DNA from: Firmicutes bacterium UBA4795
GTDB lineage: Bacteria > Bacillota > Desulfotomaculia > Desulfotomaculales > Nap2-2B
Assembly (NCBI GenBank): GCA_002402825.1
Contig: DHGP01000027.1
Location: 104,307-168,306, forward strand
DNA length: 64,000 nt
Direction of reading: 5' to 3'
Shown here: positions 47,802 through 52,325 of the stretch, piece by piece
Layout of the letters: each line of letters opens with the position of its first letter
Position numbering within the stretch: position 1 is the first letter of the stretch
Notes under the pieces: generated by a model
The model's database searches: none
Seen by the model: only the letters and a program-made list of their open reading frames with translations
Told to the model about the DNA's origin: nothing
Program-made: the position numbers and the translations under genes

Positions 47802-48032
47802 TTAGTCCCTATTACCCTCATCCAATTGTTGAGGGTCAGCCTTTTCGTAATAGTGGCGAGCAAAATCTTCAAAAGACAGACCTAAGGCATTGGCCATTTT
47901 TTGGGCTAAGCAAAGTCGGGGTGCTTTTTTACCTTCTTCAATGTTAATTAATTCTTCGGTTGTTAGTCCCATTTGGGAGGCAAAACGGTATACAGAAAAG
48001 CTTTTGCTTTCTCTTATTTTTCTTAAGCTCAT
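47802..48032 (-). CDS. XRE-family helix-turn-helix transcriptional regulator
   Basis: 76 aa. SVYRFASQMGLTTEELINIEEGKKAPRLCLAQKMANALGL is a Cro/C1-type HTH. It is the last gene of the Mrp/MinD-ferredoxin operon, and its start abuts the mrp stop. Confidence 0.75.
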   Translation of the reverse strand: MSLRKIRESKSFSVYRFASQMGLTTEELINIEEGKKAPRLCLAQKMANALGLSFEDFARHYYEKADPQQLDEGNRD

Positions 48033-48904
48033 TACTTAGCCACCTCAGTTTTTGAGTCTGGGCTGTGTTCTAAAAGAGAAGAAAAATTACCTTGAGTAAA
48101 AGGGTTGTTTTGGTATTCTTCTATTTCTCCCCGGTCGCATAAGGCGGTTAAATCAGCCTCCCAAGGCAAAACTTCAATAATTTTAAGCCCGGTTTTATTG
48201 GCCACCTCATTTACGTAACTAGGCCCAAAGGGATAAATCTTTTCCCCGCAGGCAGGACAGTTAAGATAGCTCATATTTTCTACCAAGCCTAAAATAGGAA
48301 TATTCATCGCTTTGGTCATTTTTATGGCTTTTCTTACTACCATTAAGGCCAAGTCCTGAGGTGAGGAAACAACTATGGTACCGCTTAGAGGGAGGGACTG
48401 CATTACGGTTAAGGGCACATCTCCTGTTCCGGGAGGCAGGTCAACAATTAAATAGTCCAATTTGCCCCAGGCCACATCCTTCCAGAATTGCTTAACGACA
48501 TTGCCCAGTAAAGGGCCCCGCCAGATTACCGGTTCATCTTCTTCCGGTATAAACAGGTTAATGGAAATAACCATAATTCCCAGTTTGCTTTTTACCGGTA
48601 AAATAAGGTCTCCTAAGGGAGTTGGGTGCTCGTATAAACCAAACATCCTAGGAATGCTTGGTCCGGTAATATCGGCATCCAGAATCCCTACGGCCAGGCC
48701 TTGTTTTTTTAAACCTACAGCCACCAGCGCACTAACTAAAGATTTTCCTACGCCTCCCTTGCCGCTCATTACGGCAATAACCTGCTTAATTTCGTTAAGT
48801 TCATTTTGGGGAATTAAACCAGGCTTACCCTTTGCCGCATGCTCCTGCGGTGTTTCCTGGTTGTTTACTTTATTTTCTCTGTTGTTTTCCTTTTGTCCGG
48901 GCAT
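48032..48904 (-). CDS. mrp: Mrp/NBP35/ApbC-family iron-sulfur cluster carrier ATPase
   Basis: 290 aa with the deviant Walker A SGKGGVGKS, DLPPGTGD and a CPACGEK motif. Confidence 0.9.
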   Translation of the reverse strand: MPGQKENNRENKVNNQETPQEHAAKGKPGLIPQNELNEIKQVIAVMSGKGGVGKSLVSALVAVGLKKQGLAVGILDADITGPSIPRMFGLYEHPTPLGDLILPVKSKLGIMVISINLFIPEEDEPVIWRGPLLGNVVKQFWKDVAWGKLDYLIVDLPPGTGDVPLTVMQSLPLSGTIVVSSPQDLALMVVRKAIKMTKAMNIPILGLVENMSYLNCPACGEKIYPFGPSYVNEVANKTGLKIIEVLPWEADLTALCDRGEIEEYQNNPFTQGNFSSLLEHSPDSKTEVAK

Positions 48905-48938
48905 GCTTTCCTTCCTTTCAAGTAAATAATTTAGATTT

Positions 48939-49799
48939 TTAAAGCTCGTCTTTTATTCTCCCCCAAAGTTCTTCTAAAGCTTTGGTGGTATGGCTTTTCG
49001 TGCAGCTAACCAGCGGTTGTCCTTTTTGGACTGATTTTACTACTTCTTCATCAAAAGGTATTTTAGTCAAAAGAGCAAGATTTTTCTCCCGGCAAAATTG
49101 TTCAATTTCCTGGGTATTCTCTTCATTAAGGTCGTATTTGTTAATACATACAGCCGTTTTTATTTTAAAATGCTCTGTTACCCCCTCTATTCTTTTTAAA
49201 TCGGCAAGACCGCTTAGGGTGGGTTCGGTAATAATTAGAGCCAGGTCTGCCCCGGCTAAAGAAGCAATTACCGGACAGCCAATGCCTGGGGAGCCGTCAA
49301 TGATAATTTGCCCAATCCTTTGTTTTTGAGCAATTTCTTCAGCGACGCGTCTTATGGCCGTGATTAATTTGCCTGAGGCCTCGGCCACCCCGGTTTTTAA
49401 GCGGGCATGAGAGAGCATACCATATGGGGTTTGAGAAAGATAAAGGTAACCGGTTAATTCGTCCTTCAGGGTTACGGCTCTGGCAGGACAAACCTGGACG
49501 CACACTCCGCAGCCTTCACAGCGGTATGAATTAACCTTAATTTGGTCATCAATGGCCCCAAAACGGCAAAACCCGGCACAAAGACCGCATTTTTTGCAAA
49601 TGGTCTCATCTATGGTGGCTGTTTTTGCCCCCCAAAAATCTTGCTGGGAAATTAACTGCGGGGAGAGCATTAAATGCAGGTTTGGCGCGTCCACATCGGC
49701 ATCCACCAAAATCTTATCTGACGCCAAAACAGCCAGGGAAGAGGCAATAACTGTTTTCCCGGTTCCTCCTTTACCGCTGATAATGGTAAGTTGCTTCAT
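48939..49799 (-). CDS. MinD/ParA-type P-loop ATPase with an inserted 2x[4Fe-4S] ferredoxin domain (COG1149-like)
   Basis: 286 aa with SGKGGTGKT, then CKKCGLCAGFC and CEGCGVCVQVCP inserted after the P-loop, and IDGSPGIGCPV. Confidence 0.85.
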   Translation of the reverse strand: MKQLTIISGKGGTGKTVIASSLAVLASDKILVDADVDAPNLHLMLSPQLISQQDFWGAKTATIDETICKKCGLCAGFCRFGAIDDQIKVNSYRCEGCGVCVQVCPARAVTLKDELTGYLYLSQTPYGMLSHARLKTGVAEASGKLITAIRRVAEEIAQKQRIGQIIIDGSPGIGCPVIASLAGADLALIITEPTLSGLADLKRIEGVTEHFKIKTAVCINKYDLNEENTQEIEQFCREKNLALLTKIPFDEEVVKSVQKGQPLVSCTKSHTTKALEELWGRIKDEL

Positions 49800-49822
49800 G
49801 GCCTGGTCAACCCCCTTATATT

Positions 49823-49869
49823 AGTCGTCGGTCGTCAGACATCAGTCGTCAGGAAATTTTGACGTAAAG
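49823..49869. repeat. fifth copy of the 7-nt-periodic repeat element, overlapping a CDS 3' end
   Basis: AGTCGTC GGTCGTC AGACATC AGTCGTC AGGAAATTTTGACGTAAAG is close to the reverse complement of 3741-3785. It supplies the last 11 codons or so (..TLRQNFLTTDV*) and the stop of ORF 49835-50785. Confidence 0.75.
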
Positions 49870-51187: not shown

Positions 51188-51205
51188 GCTAATTCCTCCT
51201 TGTTT

Positions 51206-51583
51206 TTATTTCCACCATGACTTAAGCCCGGCTTTTTTATTGGCGTTGGGGGTGGTGATTATATTTAGTTCGCCGGCTTGAAATTTAGTTAAGTTTTCCT
51301 TTACGTTACTTTCAGCAGCCTGGTAAACTTTAATTCCTGCGGCCTGTAAAATTTCCATGGCGTTAGGACCCACACTGCCGGTAATCACTGCTTCTACGCC
51401 TTTTTTGGTTAATTTTTGGGCCGCCTGAATGCCTGCCCCGCCGGAAACATTCTCGCCCAGGTTGTCAATTATTTCTGTTTCATTAGTCTTGAGATCAACC
51501 AAAATGAAATAAAAACAACGTCCAAAACGGGGGTCAATAACCGAGTTTAAATCTCCTTCCCGTGCCGTTATGGCTATTTTCAT
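51206..51583 (-). CDS. NifX/NifB-like (MTH1175-type) protein
   Basis: 125 aa with MKIAITAREGDLNSVIDPRFGRCFYFILVD and VITGSVGPNA. Confidence 0.8.
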   Translation of the reverse strand: MKIAITAREGDLNSVIDPRFGRCFYFILVDLKTNETEIIDNLGENVSGGAGIQAAQKLTKKGVEAVITGSVGPNAMEILQAAGIKVYQAAESNVKENLTKFQAGELNIITTPNANKKAGLKSWWK

Positions 51584-51596
51584 TGTTATTCTCCCT

Positions 51597-51842
51597 TCAC
51601 TCTCTAATCATTTTTGTCCCGCACTGGGGGCAGCTTATGCTGTAACAGGGTACACCCGGGTCATGCATAATCTTTTTCCCGCAATTAGGGCAAACACAGT
51701 TGCCGTTAGTCATTAATCCTAAGCCTTGCCTTCCCTTCTGGCCGCATCCCTGGCTCCTTCCTTTACCTTGGCTACCTTGGCCGCGACCCTGGCCTCCCCT
51801 GCCTTGTCCGCCTTGCCCACCTTTTCCACTTCCTTTAGGCAT
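51597..51842 (-). CDS. Gly/Gln/Arg-rich low-complexity protein with a C-terminal CxxC...CxxC zinc ribbon
   Basis: 81 aa. GKGGQGGQGRGGQGRGQGSQGKGRSQGCGQKGRQG is followed by CVCPNCGKKIMHDPGVPCYSISCPQCGTKM. It has good operon spacing on both sides. Confidence 0.55.
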   Translation of the reverse strand: MPKGSGKGGQGGQGRGGQGRGQGSQGKGRSQGCGQKGRQGLGLMTNGNCVCPNCGKKIMHDPGVPCYSISCPQCGTKMIRE

Positions 51843-51917
51843 TATAATTTCCTCCTTTCCTTTACGTGCTCTTACAGGGGAAGAAGCACCCTTTCTTCCC
51901 CTGTAATCTTTAAGCAG

Positions 51918-52325
51918 TTACTCTTCCTTTTCCAGTTCGGCCAGCCGCTTTTTAACCTCGGCCAGTTCTTCTTCGATGACTTTTGCCTGCTGGGCCAAAA
52001 CTTCTTTTTGCGCCTTACGTGCTTCGGGAGTATTTAGGGTAGAGGGCACATAAGGGTAAGCGGTTGGATAGGTTGTTGGATAAGGCGGATAGGCAGCCGG
52101 ATAACCAGCGGTCCAGGGAGCATAGGGAATACCTCCGCCTCTTCCCCAACCGGGAAGGCCGGCAACCCGATACCAACGCCGAAAGCCGCGCCCACGGCCA
52201 CCTCTCCCAAAGCCATAGCCTACTGGGTTAAGATAACCGGGTGCAGGGTAACCGGCACAATAACCCAAACCACGTCCGGTCATAGGCCCTGCTCCCCAAG
52301 GTCCGGTACGATCTCCCCACGGCAT
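51918..52325 (-). CDS. DUF5320-family protein (RGG/aromatic low-complexity N-terminus, C-terminal coiled coil)
   Basis: 135 aa. The N-terminus MPWGDRTGPWGAGPMTGRGLGYCAG matches the DUF5320 N-terminal box as I recall it. The C-terminus EARKAQKEVLAQQAKVIEEELAEVKKRLAELEKEE is a coiled coil. Confidence 0.7.
   Translation of the reverse strand: MPWGDRTGPWGAGPMTGRGLGYCAGYPAPGYLNPVGYGFGRGGRGRGFRRWYRVAGLPGWGRGGGIPYAPWTAGYPAAYPPYPTTYPTAYPYVPSTLNTPEARKAQKEVLAQQAKVIEEELAEVKKRLAELEKEE

What the first reader, a model, noticed from the sequence alone, without database searches (positions are those of the whole stretch)
47802..52325. Eight-gene operon of P-loop/FeS ATPases, NifX-like proteins and low-complexity proteins: a conserved but functionally unassigned metallocluster machine
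Seen in the sequence: one tightly packed minus-strand operon encodes, in order:
- DUF5320;
- a Gly-rich Zn-ribbon protein;
- two NifX/NifB-like (MTH1175-type) proteins, one with a CEHGHHHEE tail;
- two MinD-type ATPases, each with a 2x[4Fe-4S] ferredoxin domain inserted after the P-loop;
- an Mrp/NBP35 FeS carrier;
- an XRE regulator.

Established knowledge: each family is widespread in anaerobes. NifX-like proteins bind complex FeS or Mo-FeS clusters. Mrp/NBP35 proteins carry [4Fe-4S] clusters. No nitrogenase is nearby.

Inference: the set looks like a scaffold/carrier/ATPase pathway for assembling or inserting a metallocluster. It sits directly beside a W/Mo formate dehydrogenase, the hyp genes and the cofactor locus. 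To my knowledge the client enzyme and chemistry are unknown, so this is a good candidate for an undescribed maturation system.
Basis: partly seen in the sequence, partly recalled or inferred. Interest (0 to 1): 0.7.

Follow-up and report, generated by a model that had tools for sequence, protein, structure and literature searches.

The report
Known orange-protein (ORP) complex operon
This operon is a Firmicute version of the already described "orange protein" (ORP) complex of anaerobes: iron-sulfur ATPases, NifX-like metal-cluster binders and a dedicated Fe-S carrier; its cellular role is still unsettled, and it is not tied to the formate dehydrogenase next door.

Summary
The eight minus-strand genes are real and have the stated domains. 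They are not an undescribed system. Seven of them map one-to-one onto the ORP (orange protein) complex of Desulfovibrio:
- DUF5320 = Orp5-type.
- The 125-aa NifX-like protein = Orp8, the orange protein.
- The 131-aa NifX-like protein plus the Mrp protein = a split MrpORP (Orp9).
- The two MinD-ferredoxin ATPases = Orp4-type and Orp3-type.

In the Desulfovibrio literature these proteins co-purify, MrpORP passes Fe-S clusters to Orp3/Orp4 in vitro, and the authors state that the cellular role is "still unclear".

I surveyed 80 bacterial and archaeal genomes. The Orp4-Orp3 gene pair is nearly invariant. NifX-like genes almost always lie next to it. Mrp and small Gly/Arg-rich proteins are frequent neighbours.

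The XRE gene is missing from four close relatives and from all 80 loci. FdhE and TatC homologues are missing from all 80 loci, and an FdhA homologue occurs in one. fdhE also has its own promoter. The proposed link to the neighbouring FDH and hyp genes is therefore not supported.

Side findings:
- The "Zn-ribbon" protein belongs to a large uncurated family that is sometimes fused to NifX domains.
- The middle of DUF5320 has almost the same composition as the thioferrate-binding tail of IssA.

The parts
52394..52421 (-). Sigma-70 type promoter of the operon (TTGACA-16-TATAAT, 12/12), about 70 nt upstream of the first gene
   Evidence: sequence. No sigma-54 type promoter lies in 52326-52570.
51918..52325 (-). 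DUF5320 protein, Orp5-type. It has an N-terminal motif MPWGDRTGPWGAGPMTGRGLGYC, a Gly/Pro/Arg/aromatic-rich middle, and a C-terminal coiled coil.
   Evidence: PF17253, E 1.6e-23. The Orp5 homologue of Nitratidesulfovibrio liaohensis shares the N-terminal motif. The DVU2105 primer encodes MPYGDGT. Composition.
51597..51842 (-). Small Gly/Arg-rich protein with a C-terminal Cys5-His motif (the 'ZnR' family). No curated family covers it. This position in the operon is conserved.
   Evidence: Invariant C49 C51 P52 C54 H60 P65 C66 C71 C74 M78. Present in 31 of 80 loci and often 2 nt upstream of the Orp4-type gene. 2189 representative clusters. Fused to NifX domains in long proteins.
51206..51583 (-). 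NifX-like PF02579 protein, Orp8 / orange protein (MTH1175/IssA-type clade)
   Evidence: PDB 2wfb (D. gigas ORP) E 4.6e-22 and 1eo1 (MTH1175) E 1.1e-24. 41% identical to the D. alaskensis ORP, E 3e-23.
50792..51187 (-). NifX-like PF02579 protein equivalent to the C-terminal 'Di-Nase' domain of MrpORP (Orp9), here free-standing, with a Cys/His tail
   Evidence: NF041136 positions 264-364, 100.7 bits. 35% identical to DVU2109 residues 376-487, E 2e-18. Motifs HFGxC, PxHEPGxLP and C(E/D)H are shared with the published alignment.
49835..50785 (-). Orp4-type MinD-like ATPase with an inserted 2x[4Fe-4S] ferredoxin domain (PPGTSCP switch region and a long insert)
   Evidence: It lies immediately upstream of the Orp3-type gene in 68 of 71 loci.
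48939..49799 (-). Orp3-type MinD-like ATPase with an inserted 2x[4Fe-4S] ferredoxin domain (PGIGCPVIAS, SGKL)
   Evidence: 40-42% identical to the Desulfovibrio Orp3-type proteins. AlphaFold2 model pLDDT 94.4. Best PDB folds are MinD, FlhG and FleN, followed by ATPase-type HypB and NifH.
48032..48904 (-). Mrp/NBP35 Fe-S carrier, equivalent to the P-loop domain of MrpORP (GKGGVGKS, CPAC)
   Evidence: PF10609, E 5e-89. NF041136 positions 1-233, 313.8 bits. 41% identical to DVU2109 residues 67-297, E 4e-57.
47802..48032 (-). XRE-family HTH gene, translationally coupled to mrp. It is a strain-specific addition and not a conserved member.
   Evidence: HTH_3, E 3e-8. Absent from four relatives that are about 90% identical and from 80 distant loci. 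A relative carries residues 1-70 fused to a RibD fragment.

Best explanation
The locus is a seven-gene orp operon plus a strain-specific XRE gene. It is the Peptococcaceae version of the anaerobe-specific ORP (orange protein) complex.

Shown for the Desulfovibrio homologues in the literature:
- MrpORP holds a [4Fe-4S] cluster on its CxxC motif and passes Fe-S clusters in vitro to the apo Orp3-Orp4-Orp8 preparation.
- Orp3, Orp4 and Orp8 co-purify.
- The orange protein family binds an anionic Mo-Cu-sulfide cluster non-covalently.
- A homologue of Orp5 binds [2Fe-2S] after reconstitution.
- The orp genes are expressed only at low redox potential.

Inferred for this operon:
- The Mrp protein loads [4Fe-4S] clusters into the two ferredoxin inserts of an Orp4-type/Orp3-type MinD-like heterodimer.
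- That heterodimer is an ATP-driven switch gated by redox state. It acts on the two NifX-like proteins and on the two cationic Gly/Arg-rich partners (DUF5320 and the Cys5-His protein).
- Together these proteins hold, reduce and hand on anionic metal-sulfide species.
- The system therefore serves general Fe-S / metal-sulfide handling in strict anaerobes. It is not the maturase of the neighbouring formate dehydrogenase or hydrogenase.
For: Identity:
- Component-by-component homology to the ORP proteins.
- The same gene order as the D. alaskensis G20 orp operon: Orp7-like, ORP, a small Gly/Arg/Cys protein, Orp4, Orp3, MrpORP.
- The Orp4-type gene lies immediately upstream of the Orp3-type gene in 68 of 71 loci across Bacteria and Archaea.
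- Among 44 loci with good flanks, 41 have a NifX-like neighbour, 24 have Mrp, and 28 have a DUF5320 or ZnR protein.

Functional coupling of the parts:
- Mrp and NifX are fused or directly adjacent in 26 of 38 loci that carry Mrp.
- The ZnR motif is fused to NifX domains in 6 of 6 long proteins scanned.
- Four NifX proteins carry fused Gly/Arg tails, and these loci lack a separate DUF5320 or ZnR gene.

Fe-S context:
- Recurrent neighbours include IscU/NifU_N-like genes (21 loci) and Fur-like genes (10 loci).

Biochemistry of the homologues:
- PMC6345978 and PMC8359166.

ATPase class:
- The deviant Walker A motif SGKGGTGKT and eight ferredoxin cysteines are invariant.
- The predicted fold is MinD-like.
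Against: - No experiment exists on this organism.
- The Desulfovibrio authors favour a direct or indirect role in cell division and state that the role is still unclear.
- MrpORP is split here, so its NCBIfam score (313.8 bits) is below the equivalog cut-off of 450.
- There is no Orp7 orthologue and no OrpR/sigma-54 control.
- The physiological ligand of the NifX-like proteins is unknown.
- The ATP-driven, redox-gated step is inference from family membership only.
Confidence: 0.7

Rival explanations
1. One reading: a dedicated maturation or insertion system for the neighbouring W/Mo formate dehydrogenase, or for the hydrogenase served by the hyp genes.
For: - The operon is next to fdhE-tatAC-fdhA(Sec)-fdhB-nrfD and hypABF in this genome.
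- Moco and tungstate-transport genes lie 20-30 kb away.
- The orange protein can hold a Mo-containing cluster.
- One close relative keeps the fdhE-tat neighbourhood.
Against: - FdhE and TatC homologues occur in 0 of 80 related loci and an FdhA homologue in 1 of 80.
- Three of four near-identical relatives have other genes downstream, and none of the four has FdhA in the stretch fetched.
- fdhE has its own 11/12 promoter.
- No Moco, FDH or hydrogenase genes appear among the recurrent neighbours.
- The cluster occurs in many lineages regardless of FDH context.
Confidence: 0.06
2. A MinD/ParA-type positioning or cell-division system. The Orp3/Orp4 ATPases would use ATP-dependent dimerisation and a membrane or pole anchor to place a cargo or influence the septum. 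DUF5320 and ZnR would act as partner/adaptor proteins through their shared N-terminal peptide.
For: - The literature reports morphological defects when OrpR is inactivated, polar localisation of MrpORP, and a C-terminal amphipathic helix on Orp3/Orp4.
- MinD, FlhG and FleN are the best structural matches.
- The C-terminal helices of both window ATPases are amphipathic.
- DUF5320 has the conserved peptide, disordered region and coiled coil typical of ParA partner proteins. This comparison is my inference from the sequence.
- The N-terminal motif MPxGDGTGP is shared by DUF5320 proteins and by 19 of 32 ZnR proteins.
Against: - The window ATPases score far below the MinD equivalog cut-offs (68 versus 212.9 bits).
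- No minC or minE lies nearby.
- The ferredoxin inserts, NifX-like partners, Mrp, IscU-like and Fur-like neighbours all point to metal-sulfur chemistry.
- The amphipathic-helix test is weak, because the last helix of a MinD fold is generally amphipathic.
- The authors themselves call the division role a hypothesis.
Confidence: 0.15
3. A molybdenum/copper (thiomolybdate) buffering or detoxification system built around the orange protein's Mo-Cu-S cluster.
For: - The orange protein family binds [S2MoS2CuS2MoS2]3-.
- The orp genes Dde_3197-3199 are among the most strongly regulated genes in copper-exposure transcriptomes of D. alaskensis G20.
- The window is rich in W/Mo genes.
Against: - No Mo, W or Cu transport or Moco genes are among the conserved neighbours in 80 loci.
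- In the same transcriptome tables the orp genes change together with feoA and flavodoxin, which fits an iron-status response equally well.
- The other components are Fe-S proteins served by an Fe-S carrier.
Confidence: 0.08
4. A remnant or accessory of nitrogenase-type cofactor biosynthesis (NifX/NifB-like carriers with a NifH-like ATPase).
For: The PF02579 domain is shared with NifB, NifX and NafY. NifH appears among the structural neighbours of the ATPase.
Against: - No nitrogenase genes lie within 10 kb or among the recurrent neighbours.
- The NifX-like proteins match the ORP/MTH1175 clade best, which Vaccaro et al. separate from the Nif clades.
- MinD-type folds match better than NifH.
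Confidence: 0.02

Closest known systems
[quoted passage not shown] 2011; Pardoux et al. 2019, PMC6345978)
   Same: It has two paralogous MinD-like ATPases with 2x[4Fe-4S] motifs (Orp3/Orp4), the orange protein (Orp8), a DUF5320-type small protein (Orp5), and the Mrp/NBP35 and Di-Nase modules of MrpORP (Orp9). Homology is shown.
   Different: - The window has one sigma-70 operon instead of two divergent sigma-54 operons.
- It has no OrpR enhancer-binding protein. An XRE gene sits at the 3' end instead.
- MrpORP is split into two genes, which are not adjacent.
- It has no Orp7 orthologue.
- It has an extra Cys5-His small protein.
orp operon of Desulfovibrio (Oleidesulfovibrio) alaskensis G20, Dde_3197-Dde_3202
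   Same: It is a single unidirectional operon with the same order: a NifX-like gene, ORP, a small Gly/Arg/Cys protein directly upstream of Orp4, then Orp4, Orp3 and Mrp. ORP is 41% identical to the window protein.
   Different: - The G20 small protein (Dde_3197, 89 aa) lacks the Cys5-His motif and the DUF5320 coiled coil.
- MrpORP is fused in G20.
- OrpR is encoded upstream in G20.
IssA iron-sulfur storage protein of Pyrococcus furiosus (PMC5524996)
   Same: It has a PF02579/IPR003731 domain of the MTH1175-type clade. It also has a cationic Gly/Pro/aromatic-rich disordered segment proposed to wrap anionic thioferrate. Residues 25-100 of the window DUF5320 contain 16 G, 14 P, 7 R+K and 16 aromatic residues, with pI 10.1. 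The IssA tail contains 15 G, 11 P, 7 cationic and 14 aromatic residues, with pI 10.7.
   Different: In the window the cationic segment is on separate proteins rather than fused to the NifX-like domain. No nanoparticles or thioferrate have been shown for ORP proteins. IssA is not reported to work with ATPases.
Mrp/NBP35/ApbC Fe-S carriers
   Same: Deviant Walker A motif GKGGVGKS, a CxxC motif, and PF10609 at E 5e-89.
   Different: The best model match is the ORP-dedicated subfamily MrpORP rather than ApbC (313.8 versus 209.5 bits). The gene is encoded inside the orp operon.
MinD / FlhG / FleN, and the SIMIBI metallo-chaperone ATPases (ATPase-type HypB, NifH)
   Same: The fold and the deviant Walker A motif with its signature lysine.
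   Different: A 2x[4Fe-4S] ferredoxin domain is inserted after the P-loop strand. An invariant Cys follows the Walker B aspartate (D168-x2-P-G-x2-C175). No solved structure has this architecture.

Membership tests
ORP (orange protein) complex gene cluster | Single-domain PF02579 protein homologous to the orange protein (Orp8) | tested here: met
   Window 51206-51583 against PDB 2wfb, E 4.6e-22. 41% identical to the G20 ORP, E 3e-23.
ORP (orange protein) complex gene cluster | Two adjacent paralogous MinD-like ATPases, each with two [4Fe-4S] ferredoxin motifs (Orp3 and Orp4) | tested here: met
   Each window paralogue groups with a different Desulfovibrio paralogue. The order Orp4 then Orp3 is conserved in 68 of 71 loci.
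ORP (orange protein) complex gene cluster | MrpORP (Orp9): an Mrp/NBP35 P-loop domain fused to a Di-Nase (PF02579) domain | tested here: inconclusive
   Both modules are present and match NF041136 best (positions 1-233 at 313.8 bits; positions 264-364 at 100.7 bits). They are separate genes, so neither reaches the 450-bit cut-off. Split, adjacent and fused forms all occur in related loci.
ORP (orange protein) complex gene cluster | Orp5-type small protein | tested here: met
   The window DUF5320 matches PF17253 at E 1.6e-23. The N. liaohensis Orp5 homologue matches PF17253 at E 5.4e-5 over its N-terminal motif, which is below the gathering score (24.7 versus 27 bits). The DVU2105 primer encodes MPYGDGT. 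Homology is limited to the N-terminal motif and the composition.
ORP (orange protein) complex gene cluster | Orp7-type divergent NifX-like protein | tested here: not met
   Window NifX-like proteins against DVU2107 give only E 0.016. There is no third PF02579 gene in the operon.
ORP (orange protein) complex gene cluster | Sigma-54 promoters and the OrpR enhancer-binding protein | tested here: not met
   The operon has a 12/12 sigma-70 promoter. No sigma-54 consensus lies upstream. No EBP lies within 10 kb. This feature describes Desulfovibrio regulation rather than the complex itself.
ORP (orange protein) complex gene cluster | Physical complex; Fe-S transfer from Mrp to Orp3/Orp4; metal-sulfide cluster on ORP | not testable with these tools
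   Shown only for the Desulfovibrio proteins (PMC6345978).
Mrp/NBP35 Fe-S carrier family | Deviant Walker A GKGG(h)GK(S/T) and a CxxC cluster-bridging motif | tested here: met
   SGKGGVGKS and CPAC are present and align with DVU2109. PF10609, E 5e-89.
MinD (septum site-determining protein) | Score above the MinD equivalog cut-off, with minC/minE context | tested here: not met
   TIGR01968 scores 68.4 and 38.8 bits against a cut-off of 212.9. No min genes are nearby. Only the fold is MinD-like.
Nitrogenase NifX/NafY/NifB cofactor carriers | PF02579 domain in a nif gene context | tested here: not met
   The domain is present. No nif genes lie within 10 kb or among the conserved neighbours. The best matches are ORP and MTH1175.
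IssA (thioferrate storage protein) | PF02579 domain carrying a long cationic Gly/aromatic-rich C-terminal tail | tested here: not met
   Both window NifX-like proteins are short (125 and 131 aa). An IssA-like segment exists on the separate DUF5320 protein. Fused tails occur in 4 related loci.

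The most novel reading that the evidence does not exclude
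ORP-type clusters may be an ATP- and electron-driven system for storing and mobilising (or positioning) anionic iron-sulfide / metal-sulfide material in anaerobes.
- The NifX/IssA-type proteins would be the scaffolds.
- The IssA-like cationic Gly/Arg/aromatic 'tail' would be supplied in trans by DUF5320/Orp5 and by the uncurated Cys5-His family.
- The Fe-S MinD-like heterodimer would reduce or release the material.
- Mrp would carry the resulting [4Fe-4S] clusters to client proteins.

The same Gly/Arg-rich segments on cluster-associated DUF134 and Fur-like regulators would then act as ligand- or condensate-sensing modules.
Probability: 0.2. Interest if true: 0.65.

Novelty: new member of a known kind. 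Interest (0 to 1): 0.33.

Why it matters
The finding itself re-identifies a known system, so it should not be pursued as a new maturation machine for FDH or hydrogenase.

It still matters in two ways.
1. The ORP complex is very widespread. Its role has been unresolved for more than a decade, so any handle on it is useful.
2. This survey adds concrete, testable leads:
   - DUF5320 is the Orp5 family, and its middle region has IssA-tail composition.
   - A large unannotated Cys5-His small-protein family (about 2,200 representative clusters) is a regular member of these clusters and is fused to NifX domains in some proteins.
   - Fe-S assembly genes (IscU-like) and iron regulators (Fur-like) are the recurrent neighbours, rather than Mo/W enzymes.

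Tried and rejected
- The founding ORP paper (Fievet 2011, PMC3133258) is not held in the library. I used later papers from the same group instead.
- Conservation of XRE, FdhE, TatC and FdhA near the cluster was tested and rejected.
- No sigma-54 promoter lies upstream of the operon, and matches in the whole window are below chance.
- No Orp7 orthologue was found.
- Pfam and NCBIfam give only sub-threshold zinc-ribbon hits for the Cys5-His protein. Word-based homologue search found only 17 hits, all named 'hypothetical'.
- The jackhmmer search seeded with the divergent radical SAM gene drifted, probably through its Fer4 domain (173 hits), so I ignored it. By single-pass phmmer no orthologue of that gene lies near the cluster elsewhere.
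- The amphipathic C-terminal helix test for a MinD-like membrane anchor was positive but not discriminating.
- DUF5320 appears in only two unrelated papers in the library. No ORP literature newer than 2021 was found.
- I did not predict structures for the small proteins. The useful alignments contain locus-derived sequences, which the structure tool does not accept.

Full report
**1. Observation**

Eight minus-strand ORFs occupy 47802-52325 exactly as described. The gaps between genes are 6-75 nt, and the Mrp stop codon overlaps the XRE start codon by 1 nt. Domain assignments hold:
- DUF5320, E 1.6e-23.
- Two PF02579 (Nitro_FeMo-Co) proteins, E 1.6e-25 and 3.5e-18. The second ends in ...CEHGLFPHQGCEHGHHHEE.
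- Two CbiA/ParA-type P-loop proteins with Fer4 hits at residues about 60-110 and two C..C..C...C motifs each.
- An Mrp/NBP35 protein (PF10609), E 5e-89.
- An HTH_3 (XRE) protein.

The Gly-rich protein matches no curated family, only sub-threshold zinc-ribbon models.

A perfect sigma-70 promoter (TTGACA-16-TATAAT) lies at 52421-52394, about 70 nt upstream of the first gene. fdhE, 260 nt downstream of XRE, has its own 11/12 promoter at 47604-47576.

The organism is a Peptococcaceae / Desulfotomaculum-like MAG.

**2. Identity**

NCBIfam pointed to 'MrpORP'. The window Mrp protein matches positions 1-233 of NF041136 (313.8 bits), and the 131-aa NifX-like protein matches positions 264-364 (100.7 bits). 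[quoted passage not shown] That complex consists of Orp3, Orp4, Orp5, Orp8 and Orp9 (PMC6345978).

I rebuilt DVU2109 from that paper's supplement. I also fetched the orp loci of D. vulgaris, D. alaskensis G20 and Nitratidesulfovibrio liaohensis.

The component mapping is as follows:
- **Mrp.** 41% identical to DVU2109 residues 67-297, E 4e-57.
- **131-aa NifX-like protein.** 35% identical to DVU2109 residues 376-487, E 2e-18. It shares the HFGxC, PxHEPGxLP and C(E/D)H motifs.
- **125-aa NifX-like protein.** E 4.6e-22 to the D. gigas ORP structure 2wfb, and 41% identical to the G20 ORP.
- **The two ATPases.** They fall into the two Desulfovibrio paralogue types. One is the Orp3-type, with PGIGCPVIAS and SGKL. 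The other is the Orp4-type, with PPGTSCP and a long insert.
- **DUF5320.** It shares the N-terminal motif MPxxxGTGPxGxGPxxGRGxGxC with the Orp5 homologue, which matches PF17253 at E 5e-5. The published DVU2105 cloning primer encodes MPYGDGT.

The G20 operon has the same order as the window: a NifX-like gene, ORP, a small Gly/Arg/Cys protein, Orp4, Orp3, Mrp.

Differences from Desulfovibrio:
- MrpORP is split.
- There is no Orp7 orthologue.
- There is no OrpR and no sigma-54 promoter.
- There is an extra Cys5-His protein and an XRE gene.

**3. Conservation**

A profile of the ATPases was used to scan one genome per GTDB species. The best 80 loci span, among others, Methanocellaceae, Methanophagales, Bathyarchaeia, Heimdall- and Thorarchaeota, Halobacteria, Dehalococcoidia, Clostridia, Aminicenantes, Omnitrophota, Planctomycetes and Desulfobacterales.

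I annotated the loci with jackhmmer and phmmer, using the window proteins as queries.
- The Orp4-type gene lies immediately upstream of the Orp3-type gene in 68 of 71 loci with enough upstream sequence.
- Among 44 loci with at least 4 kb upstream and 2.5 kb downstream, 43 have the pair, 41 have a PF02579 neighbour, 24 have Mrp, 28 have a DUF5320 or ZnR protein, and 18 have all four classes.
- Mrp and a NifX-like module are fused or directly adjacent in 26 of 38 loci that carry Mrp.
- XRE, FdhE and TatC homologues were found in 0 of 80 loci, and an FdhA homologue in 1 of 80.

Four relatives with about 90% identical proteins keep the seven genes from DUF5320 to Mrp. None has XRE, only one has fdhE and tat downstream, and none has FdhA in the fetched stretch. 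In one relative the first 70 residues of XRE are fused to a RibD fragment, which marks the 3' end of the operon as a rearrangement junction.

An unbiased clustering of neighbouring ORFs found these recurrent partners:

| Neighbour | Loci |
|---|---|
| IscU/NifU_N-like | 21 |
| DUF134 | 17 |
| Metallo-beta-lactamase fold | 16 |
| FmdB-type zinc ribbon | 15 |
| Radical SAM | 13 |
| DUF89-like (assigned by eye, not scanned) | 10 |
| Fur-like | 10 |

No Mo/W enzyme, Moco or hydrogenase genes were among them.

**4. What is known about how it works**

- In Desulfovibrio, MrpORP binds Fe-S clusters on both of its domains. Its P-loop domain transfers its cluster in vitro to apo-aconitase and to the apo Orp3-Orp4-Orp8 preparation.
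- Orp3 co-purifies with Orp4 and Orp8.
- MrpORP localises to one cell pole.
- Orp8 homologues bind [S2MoS2CuS2MoS2] non-covalently, and an Orp5 homologue binds [2Fe-2S].
- OrpR switches the orp genes on only at low redox potential. [quoted passage not shown]

The AlphaFold2 model of the Orp3-type protein is confident (pLDDT 94.4). It resembles MinD, FlhG and FleN most closely, then ATPase-type HypB and NifH. No solved structure has the ferredoxin insert.

The invariant residues are the deviant Walker A motif, eight ferredoxin cysteines, and a Cys just after the Walker B aspartate.

**5. Best explanation and rivals**

*Best explanation.* I commit to this being an ORP complex. Mrp feeds [4Fe-4S] clusters to an Orp4/Orp3-type ATPase heterodimer. 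That heterodimer acts with the NifX-like proteins and the Gly/Arg-rich partners on anionic metal-sulfide species. Its role is general Fe-S / metal-sulfide handling at low redox potential. The identity is well supported. The mechanism is partly shown in homologues and partly inferred.

*Rivals.* The FDH/hydrogenase-maturase idea is disfavoured by synteny. The positioning/cell-division idea and the Mo/Cu buffering idea remain possible at lower weight. A nitrogenase link is unlikely.

**6. New leads**

*(a) The 'Zn-ribbon' protein.* It belongs to a family with an invariant motif, C-x-C-P-x-C-G-x4-H-x4-P-C-x4-C-P-x-C-G-x2-M.
- It is present in 31 of 80 loci. In 15 of the 29 cases with an Orp4-type gene downstream it lies within 30 nt of that gene, commonly 2 nt upstream. 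19 of 32 members start with the DUF5320-like MPRGDGTGP motif.
- A profile search finds 2189 representative clusters at E<=1e-3 and 540 at E<=1e-10.
- The long top hits carry 2-5 copies of the motif, and 6 of 6 scanned also carry PF02579 domains. The architectures are PDZ-PDZ-NifX-(motif)n-NifX and Rhodanese-(motif)-NifX.

*(b) The DUF5320 middle region.* Residues 25-100 contain 16 G, 14 P, 7 R+K, 0 D+E and 16 aromatic residues, with pI 10.1. This almost equals the reported composition of the thioferrate-binding tail of IssA: 15 G, 11 P, 7 cationic and 14 aromatic residues, with pI 10.7 (PMC5524996). IssA has a PF02579 domain of the same MTH1175-type clade.

*(c) Gly/Arg-rich segments elsewhere in these clusters.*
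- They occur fused to NifX in four loci that lack a separate DUF5320 or ZnR gene.
- They also occur on DUF134 and Fur-like regulators of these clusters.

These leads motivate the novel reading: storage and mobilisation of iron-sulfide material, with the IssA-like tail supplied in trans. I rate it at about 20%.

**7. Verdict**

The system is a new member of a known kind, a Firmicute single-operon ORP cluster with a split MrpORP. Interest is moderate to low as a discovery. It has some value as a source of testable hypotheses about a widespread complex that remains unexplained.

Noticed in passing
window 51597-51842; loci L014-L092; P0296-P0304: The Gly-rich 'Zn-ribbon' protein belongs to a large uncurated family. 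It has five invariant Cys and one invariant His, and about 2,189 representative clusters. In some long proteins the motif is repeated 2-5 times and fused to PDZ, Rhodanese and NifX-like (PF02579) domains.
   Followed up: partly
window 51918-52325 (residues 25-100): The middle of DUF5320 has almost the same Gly/Pro/cationic/aromatic composition and pI as the thioferrate-binding tail reported for P. furiosus IssA. The pooled middles of 39 family members show the same bias.
   Followed up: partly
L015, L022, L036, L043, L051, L058 (DUF134); L016, L041, L046, L072 (Fur-like); L056:7041-7490: Regulators encoded in ORP-type clusters carry the same kind of Gly/Arg(/Trp)-rich segment. On DUF134 proteins it forms a C-terminal tail after a Cys pair. 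On Fur-like proteins it forms an N-terminal MPG..W.H.FRG.G.R extension. One halobacterial protein fuses DUF134 to the Cys5-His motif.
   Followed up: no
window 52394-52421 (-) and 52493-52520 (+): Two divergent 12/12 sigma-70 consensus promoters drive the orp operon and a radical SAM/ferredoxin gene (52570-53784). Both -35 boxes sit in TTGACATATG. The plus-strand box lies inside the perfect palindrome TTGACATATGTCAA (52493-52506), a possible shared operator.
   Followed up: no
window 47802-48032; P0123: The XRE gene marks a rearrangement junction. A close relative encodes a 145-aa protein whose first 70 residues are this HTH domain and whose remainder is a RibD C-terminal fragment. Other relatives lack the gene entirely.
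   Followed up: partly
window 44745-44747 (within fdhA, 42291-45377, minus strand): The formate dehydrogenase catalytic subunit has an in-frame TGA in the motif CARL*HS, so it is a selenocysteine enzyme. Its N-terminus carries a twin-arginine signal (SRRDFLK). In relative L096 the fdhA gene is missing between tatC and fdhB.
   Followed up: partly
window 52570-56500 compared with L093 and L096: One block is absent between the DUF2889 genes and the orp operon in relative L093, so it is variable or inserted DNA. The block holds the radical SAM gene, a C_GCAxxG_C_C protein, a PIN/MazE-type toxin-antitoxin pair (54676-55297) and a pyridine nucleotide-disulfide oxidoreductase.
   Followed up: no
alignments A1/A3, position C175 of window 48939-49799: An invariant cysteine lies in the switch region just after the Walker B aspartate (D168-x2-P-G-x2-C) in both ATPase paralogue types. 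It could be a metal ligand at the dimer interface, by analogy with other SIMIBI metallo-ATPases.
   Followed up: no
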